Of a DNA stretch of 64,000 nt, positions 13,804 to 64,000 are shown in pieces. Below the pieces are notes generated by a model that was given only the letters and a program-made list of their open reading frames with translations, did no database searches and was not told the origin of the DNA. This DNA is from Ostreococcus lucimarinus (Eukaryota): NCBI GenBank assembly GCA_000092065.1, contig CP000594.1, one strand, 5' to 3'. Each line of letters opens with the position of its first letter. Position 1 is the stretch's first letter. The position numbers were made by a program, and so were the translations under genes.

Positions 13804-15612
13804 CTAGATCTCCAAGGCTGCGGTGCCTTCGCGAATTTCCGAATCGAGCTGAGACGCTCGGCGCGCGGCGAGGGCGTTCACGGCTACGAGCCAGCAGATG
13901 GCGATGGCGCTGTGACAGCATACGAGCACGGGGAGGGCGCCGATGATGGAGCCATACGCGAATATTAAGCCTTGCTGCATGAAGGATCCACCGGTTTTAC
14001 CGATTTGAGCGCCGAGGACGTCCACCGCGGCTTTACCTTTGGTTCGACTGTCTTCGTCGAGAGTGATGTACACCATCTCTTCAGCCGGTTTGAAGAGAGA
14101 AAACTTCGCCGCACGCTCGACGATGTAAATCACCGCGCCTCCTAAGACGAGCCAAGGCAAGATGGCGGACGACTGCGCGAGCTGTCCGTGACGAAGGGCG
14201 TAGATGGACGTTCCAAAGAACACCCACCCAAGAGCGATGACGGTTTTCGGCGTCACCGAGAGCGTCCCTTTCCATCCAAGATTCTTAAACAAGAACGGCG
14301 CGGCGACCATGAAGATGCCGGTAACCATTCCGCTGTACGTTTGTACGTCGCCCATGTACGCGGCGTAAGAGGTGGGATCTGGACGGTATATGCGCAACTG
14401 CGTCTTCCAAGCGACTTGGAAGATGATGGAGCTCAAACCTTGCGCGACAGCCATGACGGCCAGACACGCGACTTCGGGGGATTCGAAGACGTACATCAAC
14501 GAAGACAACAAACCGGCTTTCTTCGTCTTCTTGTTCGCCGCCTTGTCTGCGTCAGATTGGGTTTTAGAGTCTCGCTGCTTTTCCATCATCGCCGAGTTTG
14601 GATCTTTTCTCGCTTCGTCGCAAATGTACTTGTGGCACGCCATGATGGAAGCTCCGCAGAACATGACGACGGTCATGAACAACTTTAACTTTGCCGCCCA
14701 CATGTCTTCCGGTGCCACGCCCGCGGGATGCCACTGCGTGGTGACAAACTTCATGAAGAGCCCCGAGCACGCCTGCGCGACGTTGGCGCCGATGCCGAGC
14801 AAAGGATAAATGATACCAGCCTCGCTCACGCGCGTGATTTCGTTCGCCAAACCCCAAAATAGCAGACTTAACACGACATCACCCCAAAGCTCGCCGGCGA
14901 CGTAGAAGAGCGAATACGTCCAGTTCGTGAAGACGGCGATGCCGCCCGCGAGACCTCTCGGGAGCGTCGTCGCCAGCGTCGCCGCCAACTCGTACGGGTG
15001 TAAGACGTCTCGCATCGGATACAAAACCCCCGTGAACAGCGCGAAGAAGCACATGAAGAACGTCACCGCCATGTAAAACAACTTTTCCCGTCCAAACTTC
15101 GAGCTCAACCGCGCAAACAGCGACACGAACAGCAGACTCGTGGGCAAAACCGCGTACACCGTCAGGTACGGAATCTGTTCCGCCCCCCCGAACGCCGTCA
15201 CGACGAGCGTGTCCTTCACGGCGTCCATGATCGAGTTCGCGAACGCCATAAAGTAAAACATCAACGACATCGGCACCAATCGTCCCCAGAGGCCGTCCAT
15301 GGGCTTGAGAATCTTTCGCGCGTGCTTCGCGAAAAAGTTCTCTTCTCGCGCTTCGCCGCCGTCCCCAGCCGCCGCGCTCGCGGCGACGATCGCCCCTCGC
15401 ATCACCACCCCCGCTCGTCGTCCATAACACACCTCATTCGCGCGCGCGCACGTCTCCATCGACCATCTCTCACGATCCCGCGCCGTCGCGCGTTCGACGC
15501 GCCGTTCCGCGCGTCCCGCGCGTCCCGCCCGCCGCGTCTCCCCGCGCCCCACACGCGCGTCCGCGCGCGCGCGCGCGCGCGCCGCGATCACCGGCGCGCT
15601 CACGGCCGTCAT
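13804..15612 (-). CDS. NTT: Plastidic ATP/ADP translocator (nucleotide transporter NTT, TLC family) with N-terminal transit peptide
   Basis: Multi-TM protein; LYILGELWGDVVLSLLFWGLANEITRVSEAGIIYPLLGIGANVAQACSGLFMKF matches the NTT/AATP signature (…ELWGSVVLS.LFWGFANQIT…EAKKFYPLFGLGANVAL). ~600 aa with ATG at 15612. The N-terminus MTAVSAPVIAARARARADARVG… is transit-peptide-like. Confidence 0.9.
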   Translation of the reverse strand: MTAVSAPVIAARARARADARVGRGETRRAGRAGRAERRVERATARDRERWSMETCARANEVCYGRRAGVVMRGAIVAASAAAGDGGEAREENFFAKHARKILKPMDGLWGRLVPMSLMFYFMAFANSIMDAVKDTLVVTAFGGAEQIPYLTVYAVLPTSLLFVSLFARLSSKFGREKLFYMAVTFFMCFFALFTGVLYPMRDVLHPYELAATLATTLPRGLAGGIAVFTNWTYSLFYVAGELWGDVVLSLLFWGLANEITRVSEAGIIYPLLGIGANVAQACSGLFMKFVTTQWHPAGVAPEDMWAAKLKLFMTVVMFCGASIMACHKYICDEARKDPNSAMMEKQRDSKTQSDADKAANKKTKKAGLLSSLMYVFESPEVACLAVMAVAQGLSSIIFQVAWKTQLRIYRPDPTSYAAYMGDVQTYSGMVTGIFMVAAPFLFKNLGWKGTLSVTPKTVIALGWVFFGTSIYALRHGQLAQSSAILPWLVLGGAVIYIVERAAKFSLFKPAEEMVYITLDEDSRTKGKAAVDVLGAQIGKTGGSFMQQGLIFAYGSIIGALPVLVCCHSAIAICWLVAVNALAARRASQLDSEIREGTAALEI

Positions 15613-15981
15613 CGCGCGCGCGTTTCGCGCGCACGATCGACGCGCGCGCGTCGGCGTCGACCGAACCGTCGCCGTTTATTTAAACCTCGCTTTAAACGTC
15701 GCGAAATTTAAAATGTCGTCGCGCGTCGCGCGCGTCGAGCGACGCCGGTTCGGCGGCGACGAGGGAACGCGTTCGTGCGCGTCGTCGCGAGCGCTCGCGA
15801 CGCGGCGCGGCGTCGTCGCGACGCTGTGCCGCGGCGGCGCGCGCGCGCGGTCCGTTTGTCACGAGTATAATACAGGATGGGTTTTATTAGTGCCGTAATA
15901 AATCCTCGTATAGGAGTGTGTTTAGTGTGTAGTGTGTGTGACGCCGCCGACGGGACGCGCCGCGCGTCACATCCGCGCGCC
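15613..15981. promoter_or_regulatory. Shared divergent promoter region between NTT (minus) and prolyl-tRNA synthetase (plus); contains AT-rich islands (atttaaacctcgctttaaacgtcgcgaaatttaaaatg ~15676-15713; gagtataatacagg ~15863-15876, TATA-like)
   Basis: Head-to-head ATGs are 370 bp apart. These are the only AT-rich patches in an otherwise ~70% GC interval. Promoter function is inferred, not shown. Confidence 0.35.
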
Positions 15982-17685
15982 ATGCTCGCCGCGCGCGTCA
16001 CCGCCGCGCGCGCGACGCTTCGCACGCGATCCGTCACGATGCGCGCGCACGTCCTGTGCGCCTCGCGTCGCGTCTCCGCGCGCGCCGACGTCAAAACGAG
16101 CGCGAACTCGAAGAGCCACAAGGTTCACCTTCGCGCCGGCGCGACGCCGCGCGCGACGACGACGACGCGCACCGCGCGCGCGGCGACGCGGACGCGCGCG
16201 AAAAATAAGTCCACGCAGGCGGAGGCGGAGAAATCGCGCGAGGGCGCGATCACCAAGCGGAGCGAGGATTTTTCAAAGTGGTACCTGGATTGCATCCGCG
16301 AGTGCCAACTCGTCGACTACGGACCGGCGCGAGGGACGATGGTGATCCGGCCGTACGGGTACGCGATATGGGAGGGGATTCAAAAGTATATGGATGCGAA
16401 GTTTAAGGCGACGGGGGTGCAGAACGCGTACTTTCCGCAGTTGATACCGTATTCGTTCATAACGAAGGAGGCGTCGCACGTGGAGGGTTTCGCGCCGGAG
16501 TTGGCGTTGGTGACGCGAGGGGGAGGGAAGGAGTTGGAGGAGCCGCTGGTGGTGCGACCGACGAGTGAGACGATTGTGAATAATATGCTATCGCAGTGGA
16601 TTCAGAGTTATCGGGATTTGCCGATGCTGTTGAATCAGTGGTGCAACGTGCACCGGTGGGAGATGCGCACGCGGCCGTTCATTCGCACGTTGGAGTTTCT
16701 TTGGCAAGAGGGTCACACCGCGCACGCGACGGCGGAGGAAGCGGAGGAGAGAGCTATGCAGATGATTCGTGTTTACGCCGAATTCGCCCAGACGCAGGCG
16801 GCGATGCCGGTGATTCCTGGGAGAAAGTCGCGCGTCGAATCCTTCGCCGGGGCCAACGTGACGTACACCATCGAGGCGATGATGGGAGATAAAAAGGCGC
16901 TTCAAGCGGGAACATCGCACAATTTGGGCGATAACTTCGCCAAGGCGTTCGACACTACGTTTTTAGACGACAAGGGCGAGACGCAGTACGTGCATCAGAG
17001 CTCTTGGGGGGTCTCTACGCGCTTGATTGGCGGTATTCTCATGACGCACGGCGACGATTCCGGGTTAATTTTGCCCCCGCGTTTGGCGCCGATTCAAGTC
17101 GTCGTGGTGCCAATTTGGAAGAAGGACGAAGAGAAGGAAGCGGTCATGGCATCTGTCGATAGCATCATTTCTTCTCTCTCCAACGCGGGCGTTCGAACCC
17201 ATCTTGACGCGGATCAAAGTAAGTCGCCGGGGTGGAAATTCAACCAGTACGAAATGAAGGGCGTGCCGATTCGCATTGAAGTCGGTCCGAAGGATGTCGC
17301 GAAGGGTGCGTGCGTCGTCGCTCGTCGCGATGTTCCGGGCAAGGAGGGTAAGGAGTTCGGCGTGAGTATCGAGCCAGCCGCGCTCGAGACCAAGGTCAAC
17401 GACGTGCTGAATGACATTCAAAACTCGATGTTGCAAAAGGCGACCGAGTTTCGCGACGCCAACATCGTCGACGTTAAAACTATGGACGAATTAAAGGCGA
17501 CGATTGAGGCGGGGAAGTGGGCGCGATGCGGCTGGGAAGGTACCGACGAAGAAGAAAAAGCCATCAAGGAGGAGACCGGGGCAACGATTCGGTGCTTCCC
17601 GTTCGATCAACCCGCGGGCGAGCACACGTGCTTGATGTCGGGTAAGCCGGCGAAGGAGGTGTGTATCTTTGCAAAATCGTACTAA
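15982..17685 (+). CDS. Prolyl-tRNA synthetase (class II, eukaryotic/archaeal type) with organellar presequence
   Basis: …FSKWYLDCIRECQLVDYGPARGTMVIRPYGYAIWEGIQKYMD…NAYFPQLIP…LVVRPTSETIV…NQWCNVHRWEMRTRPFIRTLEFLWQEGHTAH… (class II motifs 1-3), plus a C-terminal zinc-binding-type domain. Start set to ATG M36 (MLAARVTAARATLRTRSVTMRAHVLCASRRVSARA…). Confidence 0.9.
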   Translation: MLAARVTAARATLRTRSVTMRAHVLCASRRVSARADVKTSANSKSHKVHLRAGATPRATTTTRTARAATRTRAKNKSTQAEAEKSREGAITKRSEDFSKWYLDCIRECQLVDYGPARGTMVIRPYGYAIWEGIQKYMDAKFKATGVQNAYFPQLIPYSFITKEASHVEGFAPELALVTRGGGKELEEPLVVRPTSETIVNNMLSQWIQSYRDLPMLLNQWCNVHRWEMRTRPFIRTLEFLWQEGHTAHATAEEAEERAMQMIRVYAEFAQTQAAMPVIPGRKSRVESFAGANVTYTIEAMMGDKKALQAGTSHNLGDNFAKAFDTTFLDDKGETQYVHQSSWGVSTRLIGGILMTHGDDSGLILPPRLAPIQVVVVPIWKKDEEKEAVMASVDSIISSLSNAGVRTHLDADQSKSPGWKFNQYEMKGVPIRIEVGPKDVAKGACVVARRDVPGKEGKEFGVSIEPAALETKVNDVLNDIQNSMLQKATEFRDANIVDVKTMDELKATIEAGKWARCGWEGTDEEEKAIKEETGATIRCFPFDQPAGEHTCLMSGKPAKEVCIFAKSY

Positions 17686-22621: not shown

Positions 22622-22700
22622 TGTCAGTCTCGGTTCGCGATCGAGGGTCGCATCGCGCGCGTTCGTGCGGTCGTCGTGTCGCATCGCATCGTCAACTAAC

Positions 22701-25700
22701 CTGGTCCAAGTCCCAATCCGAGTCTGTGGTTATGTCCTGGCCAGCGGCTAATTTAGCCGCTCTCGTCTTTTGCATAGCCTTGATCTCCTTGCGAGACAAC
22801 TTCTTCTTCGGTCCCTTGACCTTAACCTTGTTCCCGAGCGCGTCGACGGTGTCCTCTTGGACTTCGAATTCAACCTTGGCACCCTTAGCGGACTTGCCTT
22901 GACCCCACTTGTTACCTTCAATTTCAACAAAACCATTACCCGGAACGTTCCACGTTTCTTCCTTCAACGCATCGGCGAATTCGCAGTTGTGCGTGATGAG
23001 AAGAACGCCACCGTCGTATTCCTTGACGGCGCACGCGAGCGCGCCGAGGGCGTCGCGATCCAAATAGTTGGTCGGTTCGTCCATGACGACGATGTGCGGT
23101 TGCTGCCACATGGCGGAACCGAGCACGAGCTTAACCTTTTGGCCACCGGAAAGACCCTTGATGCGGTTGTGGGTACCGAATTCGGCATCCAAACCAAAGT
23201 CGATCAAGTGCTTCTCGACGTTCGCTTGCGTGAGCGGGCGCGCGTACAAGCCCGCGCGAGCGGCTTCGCGCTCGTCAACGCGGTTGAGGTACTTGGTGAA
23301 ACCATACTTTTCGAGCTTTTCGCGCTCCATCCAAGAGTTGGAGTCCATGGAGAGACCCTTCCATTGGCACTCGTACTCGTACTTGGACTTCTTTTGGCGG
23401 CGACCAAGAATCTTCTCGACGACGAGCTTGAGAATGGAACCATCCTCTTGCGGGACCGGAATCTTTTCCTTCATCATGCGCTCTTCCTCTTCGGTGTATT
23501 GCGCGGTGACCTTGGTCAAGTTTTCCTTGTCTTCGCCCGTGGAGAAACGCCAGCGGATGTATTCGTTCGGCGTTTTGTCCAAGTGCTGCTCGACGTGATG
23601 GAACGCGTGCTGCGCGACGTACGCGTAACGCATGTTCGGGTGACGCCAGACGGTACCCTGGTCCGGTTCGGCTTCACCGGTGAGAAGCTTGATGAAGGTA
23701 GACTTACCAGCACCGTTCGGGCCGAGGCACGCGACACGAGAGCTCAAAGAGAGCTGAATGGTCGCGTCTTGGATGATTTGACGCGTCGTGTTCGGGTACT
23801 TGAACCAGCACTTGGTCGCCTTGACGATGGCCTTGTCCTTGTTCTTCACGCCCTCGAGGAAACCCGGAACCGGGAAGATGAACTTGAGTTCGTCGTTGGA
23901 GAGCTCGGTGTACTTCTTCGCCGCCGGGCACTGCTTGACGAATTCGGTGAGATTACCTCTGTACGTCACCAACTTGCGGTTCTCGTAGTGAATGATGTGA
24001 GTACACACGCGATCCAAGAAACCGGAATCGTGAGACACAATCATGGAGGAAACTTGCGTTTGCGAGTTGAGGTACTCTTCCAACCACGCGACGTTCTTCA
24101 CGTCCAAGTGGTTCGTCGGCTCATCGAGTAACAAAATGTCCGCCTTCATGAGGATGGCGCGCGCGAGCGCGAGCTTCATCTTCCAGCCACCGGAGAGGGC
24201 GACAACCGGGCCGTTGATCATCTCGTCGGTGAATTGGAAAGAGGAGAGCGTGGAAGCGACAGATTCCTTGCTCGTGCCGTGGCCTTGGATGACAGAGTCG
24301 GAGAGAACGAACTCAACGACGTTCATCGTGTGTTGATCACCCTGGATGTCGTGCTCGACGTACACCGTGCGGAGTTCCTCCGGCGGCGGGAAGTTTTCGA
24401 CTTGGCCGTTGTTGATAGCCTTCATCAAAGTGGACTTACCGCAACCGTTCGGGCCGCACAGACCGTAACGCTTACCCTTCTTCATGTGAAGCGTGGCGTT
24501 GTTCAGCAAAATGAGCGCACCGTACGCCAAAGAGAAGTCGCACTTGCAAAGATCTTCGCCTTCTTCGTCCTCGACGACGAAGACCTTCTTGGAGGCTTCG
24601 TACACGGCGTGAGCGCGTTCGACGAGAGACTTGGTCATGGCATCGGCCTCGGAGAAGAAAAGCTTCAAGTAAGAGGTCGCGCAAGACTTGGTCCAGGTGT
24701 CGAGATCGAAGTTCTTCGCCAACAACGCGTTGGCGGACAAGGAGCAAATGTAGTCAAAGTACACCTTGACGCCGTCGCCTTGGACAAACTTCGTGACGTC
24801 TTCCTTGGAAGAACCGGAGGATTCGGCCAAAAGCGCGATGAACTGCTCGCTGACGGTTTCTTCGTTGTAGACACCCTTGCCTTCTTGGCCATCTTCGGCA
24901 CCGGTTTCGTTGCCCGCGGCTTGGAGCAAAGTCTTGTACGCGCGAGTACACACTTGGCGGCACTCCGGGTCGGCGACTTCGTCCATGGCGCGCTTCAAAA
25001 GCGGCAAAAGCTTGGGCAAGAACGGCGCGGCATCCATCGGATCTTCGACAAGTTTGCACATGTTGTCAATGATGACGGCAGACTTACGCTTGATCGGGGT
25101 GGTTTGCTGGAAGAACAAACCGCGCTGGAGAAGCGGACCCAGGAGGGAGAGCGTCGGGGATTCAACTTGTTGAACAAAAGTCGTCGCCGCGAGCTTGTGC
25201 ACGCATTCCGGAACTTCATCGACGTTGTTGATGCATTCAATCAAGGTCGGGATGAAAGGCTCGATGTCCAAGTTACCGACGCACGTCGCAACCTTGGCCA
25301 TGGACGCGGTGGACGCCTCCTTGACTTCCGAGCGCATGTGCACCATGACTTGCGCGAGCTCCGGGATGATTTCCGGCAAGTTCGCCGCGACCGCCTTGCG
25401 GTTGCGATCGACGAAAGCATCGAGCACACGCAAAGCAGCCATGGTGGACTGCCAGAACTGAGACTGAAAACCAACAAAGATCGCTCGCAACGCCGGGCGA
25501 ACCGCGAACTCGCTCAACTTGGGCGCGATGGCCGCCACCGCCGCGTCGCCAGCCGCGCGCACATTGCTAGACTTGTTATCACCCGCGAGCGTGATCGCAA
25601 CCTCGAGCAAATCAATCAAATACGGTTCCTCCGCGAACGAAGCCGCGTTCGCAATCTCCGTAATCTTTTCCGCCGCCGCCTTGCGCGCGTCCTCGTCCTT

Positions 25701-25787
25701 CTTCTTCGCCGCCTCCGTCTTGATCCCTTCGACGTCAGCCGGCGTCACCTTCGCCGCCGCGGGCACGTTGCACTTGCTCGGCGCCAT
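22701..25787 (-). CDS. EF3: Translation elongation factor 3 (eEF3, ABC-F ATPase with HEAT repeats and chromo-like insert), exon 1
   Basis: 1031-aa track ORF. N-terminal HEAT region, then two ABC cassettes ([14 protein letters not shown]…[14 protein letters not shown]…; [15 protein letters not shown]…[12 protein letters not shown]…DEPTNYLD) with a chromodomain-like insert ([24 protein letters not shown]), the eEF3 hallmark. True ATG at 25787. Confidence 0.9.
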
Positions 25788-26483
25788 TATTTACTTTTTG
25801 TCTGCGCAGGTCACGATCGCGCGCGTCCGCGGTTCACCGTCAGTCTTCCTTCTCCCGCGTCCCGTCCCCGCGCGCGCGAAGGGCTTTTTATGGATAGGCT
25901 TGCAGCCGCCACCGCCATCGGCGCGCTTTCGCGACCGTCTCTCCTCCCCCCATCGCCTCCATTCGCCGCGCGCGCGCGCGCGCGCCGTCGACCAATTTTA
26001 CACCATCGATCGCGCGCGCCCGCGCGTCCCGATCGAACGCCCGCCGCGTCGCGCGCGTCGTTCGCGTTCGCCCTCGCGCCGCCGCGCCGCGCGCCATCGC
26101 GCCTAATCATCCCTCGCGTCGCGCGTACCGTCTCCCGTGCGCGGGCGTGCGTGCGTTCGAGCGTCGAGTCGCTGGAACGTATTTATTTCGTCGTGTGTGT
26201 GCGCTGCGCGTCGTGCGTGACGGTCGCAGGCGAGGGAACGCGCGTGAGAGTGCCGCGCGGCGCGTCGCGCGCGACGGTCGCGGGCGAGGGCGCGCGCGCG
26301 TTTTCGCGATGCATCATGACGTGTGCGCATACAGTGAGACATCTATTACGATGCGAAGACGTCGAAAAACGCGCACATGGCGTTTCGAGCGCGCGCAATG
26401 CGATCGCCGCGACGCGCGCGGAGGCGCGTCGCGTCGGCGTCGCGCGCGGCGACGACCAACGACCGCGTCACACGTCGACGACG

Positions 26484-26594
26484 ATGATCGCGGCGTTCGC
26501 GCGACGCGCGCGTCGGGATGCGTGCGGCGCGATGCGGCGCGCGCTCGCGAACACCGCGATGAGGGCGTCGGCGAGCGCGAGCGCGTCCACGAGC

Positions 26595-26628
<34 letters not shown>

Positions 26629-27329
26629 ACGTGCAACAGTTTAGGGTGTATCGCTGGGATCCCGATTCGGGGGACGAACCGAAGTATAAAACCTACGACG
26701 TCGACACGAACGATTGCGGACCGATGATGCTGGACGTGCTGTTTAAGATCAAGGACGAACAGGATCAGACGCTGAGCTTTCGACGATCGTGCAGAGAGGG
26801 GATCTGCGGGTCGTGCGCGATGAACATTAACGGGCGAAACGGATTGGCGTGCCTGACCAAGGTGGAGAAGACGGAGAAGGGGGCGCAGACGATCGCGCCT
26901 CTGCCGCACATGTTCGTGGTGAGAGATTTGGTGGTGGATATGGCGAACTTTTACGCGCAGTATAAGTCGATTGAACCATTTTTGAAGACGAAGAGCGACG
27001 CGCCGGCGAACGGCGCCGAGCGCTTGCAAACCAAGGAAGATCGAGCCAAGCTCGACGGGTTGTACGAGTGCATCTTGTGCGCGTGCTGCTCGACGTCTTG
27101 TCCGTCGTATTGGTGGAACAGCGACAAGTATCTCGGACCCGCGGTGCTACTTCAGGCGTACCGATGGATCATCGACTCGCGCGACGAGTTCACCGAGGAG
27201 CGGTTGGCCAACGTCAACGACGCGTTCAAGTTGTACCGATGTCACACGATCATGAACTGCAGCAAGGTGTGCCCGAAAGGCTTGAATCCAGCGCTTAAGA
27301 TTGCGAAAATTAAGCAAATGGTGGCGTGA
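26484..27329 (+). CDS. SDHB: Succinate dehydrogenase iron-sulfur subunit (SDHB/SDH2), mitochondrial precursor
   Basis: FRVYRWDPD…KTYDVD…[46 protein letters not shown]…[19 protein letters not shown]…[19 protein letters not shown]: all three Fe-S cluster Cys motifs are present. Start set to [11 protein letters not shown]… (alternative upstream ATG at 26316). The first ~2.2 kb of track ORF 24234..27329 is antisense of eEF3. Confidence 0.9.
26596..26629. repeat. (GAC)~11 microsatellite inside the SDHB presequence (encodes poly-Thr TTTTTTTTTT)
   Basis: gacgacgacgac… read directly; it is in-frame as ACG codons. Confidence 0.7.
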
Positions 27330-58737: not shown

Positions 58738-60522
58738 CTACGCGCCGTTTAGACATCTACCGTGCACGCATTTCCCACCGACGTACGTGGCGACGATGTC
58801 GCTATCGCTAGAACTATCGAGAATTATAAAATCAGCGAACGCCCCGGGTGCCATAGTACCGACGAGACCGTCCAACGTGAGCGCGTGCGCGCCGCCGCGA
58901 GTGAACATCGTCGTCGCCTCCTCGGCCGTGAGACTTTGGCTCTCGTGTCCGTCTCCGCGCTCCACCGCCGCTCGCATGCCGGCGAAGACGTCAGCGCTGA
59001 CGATTGGCCAATCGCTACCGCCGGCAAGAGGCACGCCGTTTTCCAGAAATGTCCGCAAAGCGTAATATCTGCTCGCTCGTTCCTCGCCGAGCTTTTCCCC
59101 GGCGCTTCGCCCGTCGAGCGCTATTTGCGCAGGCTGCACGCTCGCCACCGCGCCGAGCCTCTTGAATCGTTTGGGTTGGCCATCGATTGGCGCCGTTAAG
59201 TGCTGCGAGTGCTCGATTCGAAATCTCCGCAGCGAACGCTCGCCGTTGGCGGCCTCGATCGAGGCTAGGAGCTCGAGCGCTTGTTCCACCGCGGCGTCTC
59301 CGATGGCGTGCACGGCGATCTGAAGACCCGCTGCGTCCGCGAGAGTGGCTTGCTTGCGCAAAATTTTCTCTCTTTTACCTCTGGGGTACATCAAATGTCC
59401 AGACGTCGACCCGTCGTCTAGATACGGCGCCATCATCGCCGCGGTTCGCCCGCCCAAGCTACCGTCGAGAAACGCCTTGACGCCGCCCAATCGAACCCGA
59501 GAAGCCGCGGTCTCATTCTCTCGCGTCCAACCACTGTTCCACGCGACGTGGGATTGAACGCTTGCCCAGTCCCCGAGTGGCATGTACGACGTGATGCGAA
59601 TCGGAAGGTCGCCGACCGCGTCCCATCGCTCGAGCGTCTCAAAATCTTCCCAGAGCTGCGCGTATCCATCCGCGCCCGCCACCAAGCTCTCGATGTCCCC
59701 GAAATCACCCACGGTCGTGATTCCTTTACTGAGTAAGTACTCAAACGCCCGTTTAAACGCTTCATCGCGCTCGCTCCGCGACCGCTTCGGCACCGCGTTC
59801 GACATCGCCGCCGTGGCCAACTCCTTTAGAATCCCAGTCGGCGCCCCCTCGTCGTCCAACTCCACGATCCCACCCGCGATCACCGTCTTCGCGCCCGTGA
59901 TCTTCGCGATTTCCAACGCCGCCTCGCTCGCGAATCCGACGTGTCCGCACGTCCGCGTGACCCACACCTTCGCTCCGACGAATCGTTCGTCGCCGCGCGT
60001 CCACGCGTTCGACGGCGTCTCGCCGCCCCACGACGTCTCGTCCCAACCGTGTCCCAGCACCCATTTTTCCTTCCCAGCGTCGATCGCTCGCGCGAGGGTC
60101 TCTATGAACTCTTCTTTGGACCGCACGCCTCGCAGATCGAGCGCGTCGAGCGCGAATCCGCCCGTGACGACGTGCGCGTGCGCGTCGACGAAGCCGCTTC
60201 GCAGCGCGCGCCCGCCGCAGTCCAACACGACGCCGAATCTCGTCGACGGAACGTCTTCGACGGCGATGATTCGCCCGTGTCGGGATACCGTGATGTCTTT
60301 GATCGCGCCCGCGTCGCCGACGGCGCAGTTCGCGAACGTGGTGACGTCGGCGTCGCGTTCGGCGTCGGTCGAGTGATGACGCGCGCGAGCTGGACCGGTG
60401 GTTTTAGCGCCGTAGCCGAGCGGGCAGGCGGAGAATCGAGCCTCGAACGCGGGCCAGGCGATCGCGAGGAGTGCGCTCGCGATTGCGAGGGCGAACGCGA
60501 CGTCGCGGGGGGTCCATCGCAT
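58738..60522 (-). CDS. Metal-dependent amidohydrolase (Amidohydro_3/YtcJ-like family) with N-terminal signal peptide
   Basis: MRWTPRDVAFALAIASALLAIAWPAF (signal). GFVDAHAHV (HxH metal motif), …AVHAIGD…, …IEHSQHL…, …AGGSDWPIV… are characteristic metal-ligand blocks. True ATG at 60520-60522. Confidence 0.85.
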   Translation of the reverse strand: MRWTPRDVAFALAIASALLAIAWPAFEARFSACPLGYGAKTTGPARARHHSTDAERDADVTTFANCAVGDAGAIKDITVSRHGRIIAVEDVPSTRFGVVLDCGGRALRSGFVDAHAHVVTGGFALDALDLRGVRSKEEFIETLARAIDAGKEKWVLGHGWDETSWGGETPSNAWTRGDERFVGAKVWVTRTCGHVGFASEAALEIAKITGAKTVIAGGIVELDDEGAPTGILKELATAAMSNAVPKRSRSERDEAFKRAFEYLLSKGITTVGDFGDIESLVAGADGYAQLWEDFETLERWDAVGDLPIRITSYMPLGDWASVQSHVAWNSGWTRENETAASRVRLGGVKAFLDGSLGGRTAAMMAPYLDDGSTSGHLMYPRGKREKILRKQATLADAAGLQIAVHAIGDAAVEQALELLASIEAANGERSLRRFRIEHSQHLTAPIDGQPKRFKRLGAVASVQPAQIALDGRSAGEKLGEERASRYYALRTFLENGVPLAGGSDWPIVSADVFAGMRAAVERGDGHESQSLTAEEATTMFTRGGAHALTLDGLVGTMAPGAFADFIILDSSSDSDIVATYVGGKCVHGRCLNGA

Positions 60523-60652
60523 GGCGCGGGAGCGCGCGCGAGGCGGACGCTGACGCGAGGAGCGGCGAGCGGGCGCGTGGCGGCGGCGGCGGTATGATTA
60601 CATGAATGCCTGCGTGCTGGACGATCGGTGGTCGTCGTGAACGCGAGACGCT

Positions 60653-61396
60653 CTATTTGTTGTTGCTTTCGGCTTCGGAAATTTTTCTGAGAGCCTCCTT
60701 TTGAGACGCGTCGAACGCGTGCTGCATGTCTCGCTCGTTCCAACGCAAACATCTTCGAAGCGAATTGATGAAATCGCCCGTTTGATCGGCGTAGTTGATG
60801 GTGGGAATCGGGTATTGGCTCATGCGGACGAACACGGAATCCCCGCTCTCGAGCTCGCAGCGATCGCGGCCGTCGAAGGAGACCCAGGCGGAACATCGAG
60901 CGTCTTGCGCAACGCGTAGCTCGATTTCGACGCTGTCGGGGAAAATGACGGGTCGGAAAGACAGCGTGTGTGGGCAAATCGGAGTCATCAAGATTGCTGG
61001 AACGTTCGGGTGCACCATCGAACCTCCAGCGGACACGCTGTAAGCAGTGGAACCGGTGGCGGTGGCGACAATGACGCCGTCGGCTTGAATAGTCGTGATG
61101 AGTTCTCCGCGATCGTACGCCTCAATTTGAGATAAATACGGACTTGGACCTCGATCAACGAGCAACTCATTCAAGACGGTGATCTTTTTCGTGAATTCGC
61201 CCGTTCCACCGCTTCCGATCTTGTCCTTTGCCTTGACCAGTGTACACTCGAGACGCATGCGAAGCGTAATCGGCACGCCTCCTTGGATGTTCACCACGGG
61301 CTTCCCTCGTCCGATGGATTGAAGCAAGCTCGAAGCCATTTCGTCCGATGGGTGGCTTGTCAAAAACCCGAGCGAGCCGAAATGGAACCCCGAGAA
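60653..61396 (-). CDS. NADK2: NAD kinase, C-terminal fragment (frame B), from FSGFHFGSLGFLT to the stop
   Basis: Track ORF 60653..61531 reads …QCRRFSGFHFGSLGFLTSHP…TLRMRLECT…TVLNELLVDRG…ADGVIVATATGSTAYSVSAGGSMVHP…ILMTPICPHTLSFRPVIF…, the NAD kinase C-terminal half (GSLGFLT, DGxxxxTxxGSTAYSxSAGG). Only the part from F46 matches NADK. Confidence 0.8.
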   Translation of the reverse strand, partial: FSGFHFGSLGFLTSHPSDEMASSLLQSIGRGKPVVNIQGGVPITLRMRLECTLVKAKDKIGSGGTGEFTKKITVLNELLVDRGPSPYLSQIEAYDRGELITTIQADGVIVATATGSTAYSVSAGGSMVHPNVPAILMTPICPHTLSFRPVIFPDSVEIELRVAQDARCSAWVSFDGRDRCELESGDSVFVRMSQYPIPTINYADQTGDFINSLRRCLRWNERDMQHAFDASQKEALRKISEAESNNK

Positions 61397-61397
61397 G

Positions 61398-63092
61398 CGG
61401 CGGCACTGGCCCTTGGAATAACTTGCTCGCGTGCAGGATGACGCCGTCACCGCCCAAACACACGATGATATCAGTTGTACCCCAGTCCTCTTGAGGGATG
61501 ATGCCGTCCACTTTGCGCAGTTTTTCGGCATTTTTTAAAACTACCGCTCTGTGCAGGGTGTCTTCGAGGATGTCTGCGTTCGCCAATTCATCCATGACGT
61601 CTTCGTCGAGGACGACGGTGATCCCCATCGTCATCATCGCGTGCGCGATCTCTATGAGTTCTGGCAGCAGGCCAAAGCCAATCTTCTTCAGTAAGAAAAC
61701 ACGCCGCGGTTGTTGACGCCATACCAATATCAATTGTTGCGTGCTCGGGTGAGATATCTTCAGTTCCCGGTTCTCGACGAGCTCGCGCGTGCACGAGAAA
61801 CCGTCGGTTCGAATTATGTACATATCCGGAGCGTCCGTCAGAGAGCTGTGTTCGCCAACGACAATTTCTTCCCCGTTTGCAGTACTATCGAATTCATGAT
61901 CCGCGATAAACTTTTCTCCGTTGAATGTCTTGTTATTCAACTTCGCGGCGTACTCGCGAACAAACGCCTCCTGTGCGATCGATCCGAAGTCGCACACGAG
62001 CGATTCAGCCGAGAGCGCCTCGTCGACGTCCATTCCTTGGTGCACACGCCAGCACGCGACGAGTGATCCGGTCCGTCCAATTCCAGCTTTACAGTGCACC
62101 AGGATCGGTCGCATCTTGTCATCGTTTACAGTCTCGATGAATCGTTTCACATCCTCCTCCGTCGGCGGCTCCATGTCGGGAATCGGTATGTGTACGATGT
62201 TGAGCGCGCTCGCGCCGAACGTCCCTTGGCCCGAGCCTCCCCCGAACGCTTGTAGCCACTGGTTATCTCTATCGCTCCCGCGCAAATCGATGACAGTTTT
62301 GAAGTTGTTGCGAACCAGCCAAGCTCGACCTTCCGCGGTGGGCTGCCCTCCTCGATAATACGCCGCAGCGCTCTCGTCGCCAACTTCGGTGACGATTTGC
62401 AAGTTTGGGATCGCCGTTCCGCTCGGCGCGTTCGGCGCGCGTAATCGCGGATGCACCAAGTCCAGCGACGCGCTTCGAAGCGCCTCGAAGCGATGCCGCA
62501 CCGTTACCGAGCATCCGCCGATCTCTTCGCACGACTGTTCCAGTATCACTCGCAACTCCCACAGCGCCGTGCGAAGACGCGACAACTCCTTACTTCGCAA
62601 GTTGTTACTGAACCTCCCGGCGACTTCCGCGGCGGACGCGTACACGACCATCCTCCCCAACGCCTCCGTCACCTCTCCCGAGCATGAAGCGAGCGTGTTA
62701 TTCGAAAAGTCCACCTCGCACTCCGCCGATAAGACGTCGGCGAACGACGCCAGCACCGCGCGTTCTAATTGCGCCGCCAACTGCGGCAACGGGACGTAAC
62801 TCTGATCCGAGGTCGAAGGAAACTCCACGACATCTCCCTTTTCCTGTTTCTTCGCCCCGGTATCGACCGACGGGAACATTTCAGACTCTGAAATCGCGCG
62901 TCGCTCGCCGCCGCCTCGACCTCGCGACGCGTCCCGCGCGTTCGGGCGCGCACCTCCGAAGGCCGAGCGCCGTCCGGGCAAATGCGCGCGCCGCGCCGTC
63001 ACTGTGCATACATTAGACCGTTCACGCGCGAGTTTCGTCGTCGACGACGCGCTGACGCGCGATGCCGCGGCGATCATCGTCCCGCTCGCCAT
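61398..63092 (-). CDS. NADK2: NAD kinase 2-type precursor, N-terminal fragment (frame A): transit peptide + PFA-DSP/Siw14-like phosphatase domain + first half of NADK domain up to GGDG…LFQGPVPP
   Basis: Track ORF 61167..63092 has true ATG MASGTMIAAASRV…, a phosphatase signature IPIPDMEPPTEEDVKRFIETV…ILVHCKAGIGRTGSLVACW (HCxxGxxRT), then …DIIVCLGGDGVILHASKLFQGPVPP. After that it decays into 76 nonsense codons (LLGVPFRLARVFDKPP…) while frame +1 carries the NADK continuation. Confidence 0.8.
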
Positions 63093-64000
63093 CCCTCGTC
63101 ACCGGGCGCCGCACACGATTCCCGCGCGCTCGCGCGTCCGCGGGACTCGCGAGACCTCGCGACGGGCGCGAACGATGCTCTCGCGCTCGTTCCACGCGCT
63201 CTTCCGGCGATCGCGGCGTGCGCGTGCGTCGACGCGCGCGCGTGTGCGCCCGGGCGCGACGCGACGGCGAAGCGCGAAAACGCCCTCGCGCGCGTCGCGA
63301 CGCCCAGCTTCGCGAAACCGAAACGTCCGAACCTTTAAGCGCCGTCATCGCAATCTACTCGAAGCACGATCAGTGTCGCGAACCACACCATCGATCGAAC
63401 GCGCGACGAGCACCGCTTCGCGAAACATGAAACCGATCGACCCACCGTCAGGTTCACGAACCTGCAAGCCCCGAACCCGCGCGCGGGTTCGATTCGACAT
63501 CAACGAACCTCGCGCGGTTCAGCGAACCTTCGATCGGGTGACAAAAATAGCATCCCGAATGATGCGCGCCATCGTGGATCGCGGAATGGATGTCCGATCG
63601 AAAAAATACGACCGCGATCCCACGGATGCGTGGGTGTGCGAACATCGATATCGATATCATCGATGACCGGGGTTTCGATCGTTTCGTCGCCCCGTCCGCG
63701 ATCGCGCGCGCGGGCCCGGTCGCGCGCGCGATTGCGATTACAAGGGGCCTCCCGACGCGTCGCATCGCGACGCGCGCACGCCATGGCCCTCTCTCTCGCG
63801 CAGGTCGCGCCCGCGGCGCAGGTGCGTCGCGTCTCGCACCGTCGCGCGCGTCGCGCGCGTCTCTCGGCGTCGCGAACGCGCGCGCGTCGTCGCGAACGGC
63901 GGCATCGCTCGGCATCGGATAGGATGGCCATCGGCGCGTCGTCGCGGGTCGACGCGCGACCGGGACGCGACGACGCGCGACGTCGACGGAGGGCGAGAGA

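What the first reader, a model, noticed from the sequence alone, without database searches (positions are those of the whole stretch)
61398..63092. NAD kinase fused to an N-terminal Siw14/PFA-DSP-like phosphatase domain (HCKAGIGRTG)
Upstream of the NADK catalytic domain the same ORF carries a complete CX5R phosphatase signature (…NIVHIPIPDMEPPTEEDVKRFIETVNDDKMRPILVHCKAGIGRTGSLVACWR…). This is of the plant/fungal atypical dual-specificity 'Tyr_phosphatase_2' type, and the N-terminus is transit-peptide-like. The architecture is typical of plant NADK2. Whether the phosphatase-like module is catalytic (Cys and Arg are present here) or regulatory is not settled to my knowledge. An alga with a compact version is a convenient system to test it.
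Basis: partly seen in the sequence, partly recalled or inferred. Interest (0 to 1): 0.5.

Follow-up and report, generated by a model that had tools for sequence, protein, structure and literature searches.

The report
Algal NAD kinase with phosphatase domain
This is the Ostreococcus lucimarinus copy of the chloroplast-type NAD kinase (NADK2), whose attached phosphatase-like domain is a published, database-curated architecture; it is worth noting because the alga keeps an intact phosphatase active site that land plants have lost, and because the reference sequence has a one-base error or lesion here that truncated the public gene model.

Summary
One minus-strand gene (63092→60653) encodes a leader, a helical bundle, a Cys-based phosphatase domain (HCKAGIGRTG) and an NAD kinase. 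The fusion is already known. Pfam has a family named for it (PF22741 PTP-NADK; 179.8 bits, E 3.5e-53 here). Li et al. 2014 reported DSP/PTP domains in plant NADK subfamily II and placed this gene's own model in that subfamily. The "Siw14/PFA-DSP" label is not supported as membership: Y_phosphatase2 scores 25.5 bits against a cut-off of 27, and the P-loop lacks that family's basic residues. The nearest relatives are PDB 25xa and DUSP23.

Three things are added here.
- The window has an extra G (61388-61391) that breaks the frame. Three 99.65%-identical environmental contigs lack it.
- The reference model XP_001421435.1 (313 aa) is exactly residues 500-812 of the repaired protein, so it omits the phosphatase domain.
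- Asp306, Cys334 and Arg340 are invariant in 31 Mamiellophyceae homologs. All land-plant-type NADK2 sequences with a readable P-loop have Ser for Cys, and those with a readable acid loop lack the Asp.

The algal domain is therefore probably catalytic and the plant one probably only binds phosphate. The substrate is untested. NADP(H) is my leading guess.

The parts
60653..63092 (-). Whole NADK2-type gene (ATG at 63092, stop codon at 60653-60655). It encodes 812 aa once one G of the run at 61388-61391 is removed. No intron is needed.
   Evidence: The repaired protein is 99% identical to the continuous 807-aa P0135. The DNA is 99.65% identical to L005-L007 with a single 1-nt gap.
62817..63092 (-). 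N-terminal leader (aa 1-92). It is rich in Ala, Arg and Ser, poor in acidic residues, unconserved and predicted disordered, so it is a presumed plastid transit peptide. An alternative start is Met6, which metagenome gene callers used.
   Evidence: Composition. pLDDT is about 25 over residues 1-92 of the model. There is no consensus in A1 over this stretch. P0135 starts at the Met6 equivalent. Localisation was not tested.
62463..62789 (-). Five-helix bundle (about aa 102-210), predicted to form one compact unit with the phosphatase domain. It is conserved in Mamiellophyceae.
61953..62426 (-). Cys-based PTP/DSP-fold phosphatase domain of Pfam family PF22741 PTP-NADK (aa 223-380).
62175..62177 (-). 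Asp306 codon in IPIPDMEPP, the putative general acid. It aligns with the Asp of the DUSP23 IPDFCPP loop.
   Evidence: Invariant in 31 of 31 Mamiellophyceae homologs (D301 in P0135 numbering). Asp in 55 of 67 family representatives.
62067..62096 (-). P-loop HCKAGIGRTG (aa 333-342), holding the nucleophile Cys334 (62091-62093) and Arg340 (62073-62075).
   Evidence: Invariant in 31 of 31 homologs. Across the family, Cys is present in 60 of 67 and Arg in 67 of 67. The 7 exceptions have Ser and are the land-plant type.
61653..61952 (-). Short linker (aa 381-411) followed by a highly conserved N-terminal extension of the kinase (GEHSSL..APDMYIIRTDGFSCTRE...HPSTQQ...VWR).
   Evidence: Invariant columns. 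The same motif is present in plant-type sequences. In Micromonas-type homologs the linker is more than 100 aa longer.
61325..61652 (-). NAD kinase N-terminal domain (PF01513, aa 481-589) with GGDG at 61443-61454. It is interrupted by the frame break.
61388..61391 (-). GGGG run (CCCC on the + strand) that carries one extra G relative to three near-identical environmental contigs. It shifts the frame inside ...VPPLLG|FHFGSLGFLT...
   Evidence: A more distant relative (L001) also reads through in one frame.
60794..61174 (-). NAD kinase C-terminal domain (PF20143, aa 640-766), with the NE motif (NELLVDRG, 61148-61171) and the Gly-rich motif (TGSTAYSVSAGG, 61022-61057).
   Evidence: The motifs are those defined in PMC4072752. 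Foldseek matches human NADK at E about 1e-16.

Best explanation
What it is: the Ostreococcus lucimarinus CCE9901 ortholog of plastid NAD kinase 2 (plant NADK subfamily II). It is one polypeptide of about 812 aa made of five parts: a transit-like leader, a five-helix bundle, a PTP-NADK-family Cys-phosphatase domain, a short linker, and an NAD kinase.

Shown:
- The domain architecture.
- Orthology. The public 313-aa model of this very gene was placed in subfamily II.
- An intact Asp/Cys/Arg catalytic set that is invariant across Mamiellophyceae.
- Replacement of the Cys by Ser and loss of the Asp in land-plant-type NADK2.
- One extra G in this assembly that is absent from near-identical environmental DNA. 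I read it as a reference sequencing error or a strain-private lesion, not an intron or recoding site.

Inferred mechanism: the C-terminal half phosphorylates NAD+ to NADP+ with ATP in the plastid. The N-terminal module in this alga is a working cysteine phosphatase. Cys334 would act as nucleophile, Arg340 and the P-loop amides would hold the phosphate, and Asp306 would act as general acid. My preferred substrate is the kinase's own product, the 2'-phosphate of NADP(H). That would make the protein a kinase/phosphatase pair on one chain, analogous to (not homologous with) the archaeal NAD kinase/NADPase MJ0917. In land plants the same module would survive as a phosphate-binding pseudophosphatase with a purely regulatory role.

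Likelihoods: identity and architecture about 0.95. Catalytically competent phosphatase in this alga about 0.6. NADP(H) as the physiological substrate about 0.25-0.3. The single confidence figure given (0.6) refers to identity plus an active phosphatase module.
For: Architecture: PF22741 at 179.8 bits, PF01513 and PF20143. The repaired reading frame equals the continuous 807-aa P0135.

Organism: seven neighbouring ORFs match exactly proteins in the collection, five of them with O. lucimarinus CCE9901 XP_ accessions on a 708,927-bp record.

Orthology and prior knowledge: XP_001421435.1 / A4S7D7 equals residues 500-812 of the repaired protein. It is listed as OlNADK2, subfamily II, in Li et al. 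2014 Table S1. That paper reports DSPc/PTPc domains in subfamily II.

Frameshift: three contigs from separate samples have GGG where the window has GGGG, and this is the only gap in 2601 aligned bases. Full-length 807- and 812-aa forms occur on hundreds of contigs.

Contrast with plants: 17 of 17 land-plant hits with an intact P-loop read HSxxGxxR. The 7 plant-type representatives have Ser for Cys and no Asp, while Arg is kept in 67 of 67.

Precedent for a fused NADPase/NAD kinase: MJ0917 and MMP1489 (PMC8553519; NCBIfam NF010678 exists).
Against: No biochemical test of any PTP-NADK domain was found in the ten literature searches. The substrate is therefore pure inference from the fusion.

To my knowledge no CX5R phosphatase is known to act on NADP(H).

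Among 67 family representatives only 6 are fused to NADK, and no other fusion partner points to NAD metabolism (partners include PilZ, FGE-sulfatase and a CDKN3-like domain). Gene neighbourhoods of stand-alone homologs were uninformative.

A kinase and its opposing phosphatase on one chain risks a futile cycle unless they are reciprocally regulated, and no regulatory evidence was obtained.

In Arabidopsis the chloroplast NADP(H) phosphatase is CCR4C, an unrelated fold (PMC12557515).

The full-length AF2 model was poor (pLDDT 56), so nothing can be said about geometry between the domains.

If the extra G is real in strain CCE9901, the gene is broken in that strain.
Confidence: 0.6

Rival explanations
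1. The phosphatase domain is a protein phosphatase or an autoregulatory module. It would dephosphorylate the kinase domain itself or other plastid phosphoproteins, coupling NADP+ synthesis to phospho-signalling rather than reversing the reaction.
For: The closest characterised relatives are protein phosphatases: DUSP23/VHZ, KAP/CDKN3, CDC14 and archaeal PTPs. Most family members are not fused to NADK, so the domain has uses unrelated to NADP. Animal NADKs are regulated by phosphorylation (as cited in PMC6593290).
Against: No phosphosite or partner is known. The fusion appears in red-algal subfamily II entries (PMC4072752) and in green algae and plants, which argues for a function tied directly to the kinase. 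Land plants kept the P-loop Arg and Gly residues after losing Cys, which fits ligand binding better than a lost protein phosphatase.
Confidence: 0.25
2. Even in the alga the module is mainly a phospho-ligand sensor rather than an enzyme that turns over substrate. It would bind NADP(H), another phosphorylated metabolite, or calmodulin, and control the kinase allosterically. The intact catalytic triad would be incidental or serve as a redox-sensitive switch.
For: Land-plant orthologs work without Cys or Asp yet keep the domain and its Arg. A calmodulin-binding stretch maps to the N-terminal extension of AtNADK2 (Turner 2004, as cited in PMC5890153 and PMC6593290). PTP catalytic cysteines are redox-sensitive (general knowledge).
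Against: Invariance of Asp, Cys and Arg and of the whole P-loop in 31 of 31 Mamiellophyceae, and Cys in 60 of 67 across the family, is what is expected of an active enzyme. Pseudophosphatases usually drift at these positions, as the plant lineage did.
Confidence: 0.2
3. One reading: a Siw14/PFA-DSP-type enzyme that acts on inositol pyrophosphates or polyphosphate.
Against: That match is below the Pfam gathering score, against 179.8 bits for PTP-NADK. PFA-DSP structures rank about 34th in the profile search (7e-6 against 4.8e-13 for DUSP23). The P-loop HCKAGIGRTG lacks the Arg, Lys and His residues that PFA-DSP loops use for highly charged substrates (recalled from memory).
Confidence: 0.07
4. 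The frame break is genuine. The gene would be a recently inactivated pseudogene in strain CCE9901, or would yield a phosphatase-only product ending after GGDG.
For: The extra G is in the assembly as given. The public gene model had to skip it.
Against: It is a single-base difference in a homopolymer. The downstream 245 codons are intact and match the wild-type protein. There are only 8 other differences in 2.6 kb relative to environmental copies. Plastid NADK2 loss is severe in Arabidopsis (PMC12557515).
Confidence: 0.12

Closest known systems
Plant chloroplast NAD kinase 2 (AtNADK2, At1g21640; NADK subfamily II of Li et al. 2014)
   Same: Same order of parts: leader, helical region, PF22741 domain, linker, conserved MY(L/I)(V/I)RTDGFSCTRE...HPSTQQ extension, then NAD kinase with GGDG, NE and Gly-rich motifs. 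The public model of this gene was itself placed in subfamily II.
   Different: The alga keeps Cys334, Asp306 and the helix Cys347. Land-plant-type sequences have Ser, a hydrophobic residue and Arg at those positions. The linker is about 30 aa here against several hundred in plants, giving 812 aa against about 986-1052 aa (AtNADK2 is 999 aa in PMC4072752 Table S1).
Pfam PF22741 PTP-NADK ('DSP-PTPase phosphatase fused to NAD+ Kinase')
   Same: Full-length match at 179.8 bits against a cut-off of 27.
   Different: None at domain level. Most representatives of the family are stand-alone or have other fusion partners: only 6 of the 67 surveyed carry NADK.
DUSP23/VHZ and PDB 25xa ('dual specificity protein phosphatase family protein')
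   Different: They are small single-domain proteins with no helical bundle and no kinase. DUSP23 is a protein phosphatase. The function of 25xa is unknown to me.
Siw14 / plant-and-fungi atypical DSPs (Pfam Y_phosphatase2)
   Different: The Pfam match is below the family threshold. The P-loop is not basic. These enzymes are not fused to NADK.
MJ0917 / MMP1489 bifunctional NADP phosphatase/NAD kinase of methanogens
   Same: A phosphatase domain and an NAD kinase domain on one chain. The opposing activities are experimentally shown for MJ0917 (PMC8553519).
   Different: The phosphatase half there has the inositol-monophosphatase fold, not the PTP fold. Only the kinase half of the algal protein matches NF010678 (128.5 bits against a cut-off of 493). 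This is an analogy, not homology.
CCR4C / Nocturnin NADP(H) 2'-phosphatases
   Same: A possible functional counterpart. CCR4C is the chloroplast NADP(H) phosphatase that genetically opposes NADK2 in Arabidopsis (PMC12557515).
   Different: It has an unrelated endonuclease/exonuclease/phosphatase fold and is a separate gene.

Membership tests
Pfam PF22741 PTP-NADK | Match to the family HMM above its gathering score over the whole domain | tested here: met
   179.8 bits against a cut-off of 27, profile positions 1-163 of 163, aa 223-380.
Cys-based PTP/DSP superfamily (active enzymes) | CX5R P-loop with nucleophilic Cys and Arg, plus a general-acid Asp on the preceding loop | tested here: met
   HCKAGIGRTG and IPIPDMEPP are present and invariant in 31 of 31 homologs. 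The Asp aligns with the DUSP23 IPDFCPP loop.
Cys-based PTP/DSP superfamily (active enzymes) | PTP fold | tested here: met
Cys-based PTP/DSP superfamily (active enzymes) | Demonstrated phosphohydrolase activity | not testable with these tools
   This needs a recombinant enzyme assay. No published assay was found.
PFA-DSP / Siw14 (Pfam PF03162 Y_phosphatase2) | Match to PF03162 above its gathering score | tested here: not met
   25.5 bits against a cut-off of 27. PFA-DSP structures score only 7e-6 in the profile search.
PFA-DSP / Siw14 (Pfam PF03162 Y_phosphatase2) | Basic P-loop (HCxRGKHR-type) suited to inositol pyrophosphates | tested here: not met
   The loop is HCKAGIGRTG, with Ala, Ile and Gly where PFA-DSPs have Arg, Lys and His. 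The PFA-DSP consensus is recalled from memory.
Plant NADK subfamily II (NADK2 orthologs) | [quoted passage not shown] | tested here: met
   PF01513 and PF20143 match. The motifs lie at aa 547-550, 641-648 and 679-690. They are defined in PMC4072752.
Plant NADK subfamily II (NADK2 orthologs) | Phylogenetic placement of the kinase domain in subfamily II | tested here: met
   I did not recompute the tree. The published tree places XP_001421435.1 (OlNADK2) in subfamily II, and that protein is exactly residues 500-812 of this gene.
Plant NADK subfamily II (NADK2 orthologs) | N-terminal DSP/PTP-type domain | tested here: met
   The same domain is present in land-plant hits.
Plant NADK subfamily II (NADK2 orthologs) | Plastid localisation | not testable with these tools
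   Only the leader's composition and predicted disorder are consistent with it.
MJ0917-type bifunctional NADP phosphatase/NAD kinase (NCBIfam NF010678) | IMPase-fold phosphatase half and a whole-protein score above the cut-off | tested here: not met
   128.5 bits against a cut-off of 493. Only profile positions 311-550 (the kinase half) match.

The most novel reading that the evidence does not exclude
Mamiellophyceae NADK2 would be a true bifunctional NAD kinase / NADP(H) 2'-phosphatase whose phosphatase half has the cysteine-PTP fold, an activity not known for that superfamily. This would be the ancestral state of the plastid enzyme. The streptophyte/land-plant lineage would then have converted the module into a Cys-to-Ser pseudophosphatase that only senses a phospho-ligand, with NADP(H) dephosphorylation handed over to a separate enzyme such as CCR4C.
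Probability: 0.22. Interest if true: 0.75.

Novelty: already known. Interest (0 to 1): 0.35.

Why it matters
The NADP+/NAD+ balance in plastids controls the acceptor side of photosynthetic electron transport. NADK2 supplies that NADP+ (PMC12557515). It is still not known how the kinase is restrained, or what its conserved N-terminal phosphatase-like half does.

The comparison made here gives a concrete experimental handle. Tiny green algae carry a compact version with a complete catalytic site, while land plants carry a naturally 'substrate-trap-like' Cys-to-Ser version. Testing the algal module on NADP(H) and other phospho-substrates, and back-mutating the plant one, would say whether plastid NADK2 began as a kinase/phosphatase pair.

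On the practical side, the O. lucimarinus reference protein (XP_001421435.1 / A4S7D7, 313 aa) is missing 499 N-terminal residues. The genome record has a probable one-base error at this locus.

Tried and rejected
1. Intron as the cause of the frame break: rejected. No GT..AG is present. The difference from three 99.65%-identical contigs is exactly one G in a homopolymer.

2. The first homolog search used only the N-terminal half and returned nothing above 55% identity. Exact look-ups of the ORFs also failed. This briefly suggested the gene was absent from public data. A full-length query then found the 99%-identical cluster, so the earlier miss was a limit of the word index.

3. The literature was searched for any functional study of the domain. 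Terms included NADK2 with phosphatase domain or tyrosine phosphatase, PTP-NADK, DSP-PTPase, NADP phosphatase and pseudophosphatase. Only Li et al. 2014 and reviews that repeat it were found. Turner et al. 2004 is not held.

4. Guilt by association:
- Gene neighbourhoods of stand-alone homologs P0021 and P0025 gave no NAD link.
- A Pfam survey of 67 family representatives gave no NAD-related partner other than NADK.

5. The full-length AF2 model had pLDDT 56, with the kinase half poorly modelled. It was not used for inference about geometry between the domains.

6. The afdb50 fold library was unavailable, so AtNADK2 could not be matched by name through structure.

7. The two 602-aa ORFs at 13804-15612 and 15877-17685 were checked as possible inverted duplicates. 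They are unrelated.
Full report
**Observation**

The minus strand of the window carries an ATG-initiated ORF, 63092..61167 (641 aa). It contains the quoted peptide and the P-loop HCKAGIGRTG (aa 333-342, window 62067-62096). Against Pfam, the repaired protein (see below) gives:
- PF22741 'PTP-NADK: DSP-PTPase phosphatase fused to NAD+ Kinase' at E 3.5e-53, 179.8 bits, covering all 163 profile positions (aa 223-380).
- PF01513 NAD_kinase (aa 481-589).
- PF20143 NAD_kinase_C (aa 640-766).

The finding's lower coordinate (61398) lies just upstream of a frame change. The first ORF runs on into nonsense after ...VPPLLG. The rest of the kinase is read in ORF 61531..60653. Deleting one G of the run GGGG at 61388-61391 yields a continuous 812-aa protein that reads ...VPPLLGFHFGSLGFLTSH....

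Several results show that this reading is the biological one:
- A more distant relative (L001) reads LFQGPVPPLMGFHFGSMGFLTNHP in a single frame.
- A full-length search finds P0135 (807 aa, 99% identical, a cluster of 183 sequences) with exactly the repaired reading.
- Three contigs from separate samples (ENA ERZ23487470; Logan SRR31273334 and SRR31273157) are 99.65% identical to window 60600-63200. They differ by 8 substitutions and a single 1-nt gap, GGG against GGGG.

There is no GT..AG, and only one base differs, so this is not an intron. The extra G is either an error in the reference or a private lesion of the sequenced strain. Reads are needed to decide.

**Organism and public annotation**

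Seven neighbouring ORFs are exact matches to proteins in the collection. Five carry Ostreococcus lucimarinus CCE9901 XP_ accessions on a 708,927-bp record.

The public model of this gene is XP_001421435.1 / ABO99728.1 / UniProt A4S7D7 (313 aa, 'predicted protein' / 'NAD(+) kinase'). It is exactly residues 500-812 of my repaired protein. The annotators' homology-based model therefore stepped over the extra base and omitted the first 499 residues, including the phosphatase domain. Full-length 807- and 812-aa versions occur on hundreds of environmental contigs.

**Is the architecture known?**

Yes.
- Pfam curates a family named for this fusion.
- Li et al. 2014 (PLoS One 9:e101051, PMC4072752) reported that plant NADK subfamily II proteins carry N-terminal DSPc or PTPc/DSPc (or ADK) domains, acquired by gene fusion in the rhodophyte/Viridiplantae lineage.
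- Their Table S1 lists AtNADK2 (999 aa), O. tauri OtNADK1 (721 aa), Micromonas MpNADK1 (988 aa) and this very gene as OlNADK2 (313 aa), all in subfamily II.
- UniRef names land-plant homologs 'DSP-PTPase phosphatase fused to NAD+ Kinase domain-containing protein'.
- All 31 aligned Mamiellophyceae homologs (named hits are Micromonas pusilla and Bathycoccus prasinos; the rest are unnamed environmental sequences) carry PF22741 plus NAD kinase Pfam domains.

**Which phosphatase family?**

- PF03162 scores 25.5 bits, below its 27-bit gathering score, against 179.8 bits for PTP-NADK.
- A profile built from 61 family members, searched against PDB sequences, gives 25xa (4.7e-20), DUSP23/VHZ (4.8e-13), Tk-PTP (7e-11), CDC14B (1.4e-9), and only then the PFA-DSPs At1g05000 and AtPFA-DSP1 (7e-6).
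- The P-loop HCKAGIGRTG resembles the CDC14/PTEN/DUSP23 type. It lacks the Arg, Lys and His residues of PFA-DSP loops (those loops are recalled from memory).

The model also shows a five-helix bundle (aa about 102-210) packed with the phosphatase domain into one unit. None of the top PDB hits covers this bundle.

**Catalytic or regulatory?**

This is where the analysis adds something.
- In 31 Mamiellophyceae homologs, the whole P-loop (H-C-K-A-G-I-G-R-T-G), the acid-loop Asp (D301 in P0135, Asp306 here) and flanking residues are invariant.
- A HMMER scan of 1.84 billion representatives with the domain found 4105 relatives (E up to 1e-3) and 224 at 1e-10 or better.
- Among 67 of the best representatives, Arg is invariant (67 of 67) and Cys is present in 60.
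- The 7 exceptions all have Ser and are all of the land-plant NADK2 type (for example P0297, 986 aa, with GGDG at 751). Their loops read LYLHSQGGVGRA or IYLHSKEGV(S/W)RTS. They have Phe, Ile or Val where the Asp should be, and Arg in place of the helix Cys.
- A separate search seeded with a plant sequence returned named land-plant proteins (Camellia, Trifolium 'NAD kinase 2 chloroplastic-like', Brassica, Capsicum, Gossypium, Oryza). All 17 with an intact P-loop read HSxxGxxR.

Cys-to-Ser is the classic inactivating, substrate-trapping change in this superfamily (general knowledge). The land-plant module is therefore most simply a phosphate-binding pseudophosphatase, while the algal one has everything an active enzyme needs. 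I found no paper that states this contrast or tests the domain, but the held library is incomplete.

**Mechanism**

Shown: the kinase half has the GGDG, NE and Gly-rich motifs and matches human NADK structures. The phosphatase half has an intact, conserved active site.

Inferred: the module is an active cysteine phosphatase (about 0.6). My preferred substrate is the kinase's product, the 2'-phosphate of NADP(H) (about 0.25-0.3). That would give a kinase/phosphatase pair on one chain. There is an experimentally established analogue, though not a homologue: MJ0917/MMP1489 of methanogens fuse an IMPase-fold NADPase to NAD kinase (PMC8553519). NCBIfam NF010678 matches only the kinase half of the algal protein.

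Evidence against the NADP(H) idea:
- No CX5R enzyme is known to me to act on NADP(H).
- Only 6 of 67 family representatives are NADK fusions, and no other partner points to NAD metabolism.
- Neighbourhoods of stand-alone homologs are uninformative.
- In Arabidopsis the chloroplast NADP(H) phosphatase that opposes NADK2 is CCR4C, an unrelated fold (PMC12557515).

They are scored separately.

**Verdict**

The finding is a correct reading of a known architecture, and it improves on a truncated reference annotation. The specific family label (PFA-DSP/Siw14) is wrong. 'Typical of plant NADK2' is right. The open question is genuine and is sharpened by the active-site contrast between algae and land plants.

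Novelty of the object: already known. Interest is moderate (0.35). The architecture would not surprise a specialist, but the intact algal site against the dead plant site makes the function of the NADK2 N-terminal half directly testable.

Noticed in passing
window 61388-61391 (minus-strand GGGG): One extra G relative to three 99.65%-identical environmental contigs breaks the NADK2 reading frame. The public model XP_001421435.1 (313 aa) steps over it and starts at Met500, so it omits the phosphatase domain.
   Followed up: yes
window 58738-60522 (-): The neighbouring amidohydrolase (YtcJ-like) is an intact 594-aa ORF that is found exactly on 44 environmental contigs. The NCBI model for O. lucimarinus (XP_001421402.1) is a 485-aa 'partial' protein, so this is another under-called gene model in the region.
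   Followed up: partly
L001 7281-7718 (ENA 'mantis' contig, Micromonas-like): The ortholog is called as two genes (520-aa PTP part and 430-aa NADK part). The frame changes inside the low-complexity Ala/Ser/Asp-rich linker. This could be a frameshift error, a small intron or a gene-caller artefact; it was not resolved.
   Followed up: partly
P0314, P0317, P0339-P0343 (Oryza fragments): Several Oryza gene-model fragments read IYLHCQEGN, with Cys at the catalytic position, and then diverge from one another straight after EGN. O. punctata reads IYLHSQEGNGRTS. This could be an exon-boundary artefact or a Ser-to-Cys reversion in some rice genomes.
   Followed up: no
PDB 25xa_A: The closest solved structure is a 162-aa 'dual specificity protein phosphatase family protein'. 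It also shares the post-catalytic helix motif (QE..V.EYA..L) with the NADK2 module. Its organism and function are unknown to me, and it may be the first solved member of the PTP-NADK family.
   Followed up: no
P0023, P0024 (red algae): Gracilariopsis 'putative NAD kinase 2, chloroplastic' (459 aa) and a Cyanidium protein (517 aa) carry the PTP-NADK domain at their C-terminus with no NAD kinase domain. Either these are split gene models or red algae have a free-standing version of the module.
   Followed up: no
window-wide: With about 60-67% G+C the window produces many long overlapping antisense ORFs. One example is 24234-27329 (+), 1031 aa, opposite the EF3 gene at 22692-25787 (-), also 1031 aa. 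ORF length alone is not evidence of a gene here.
   Followed up: no
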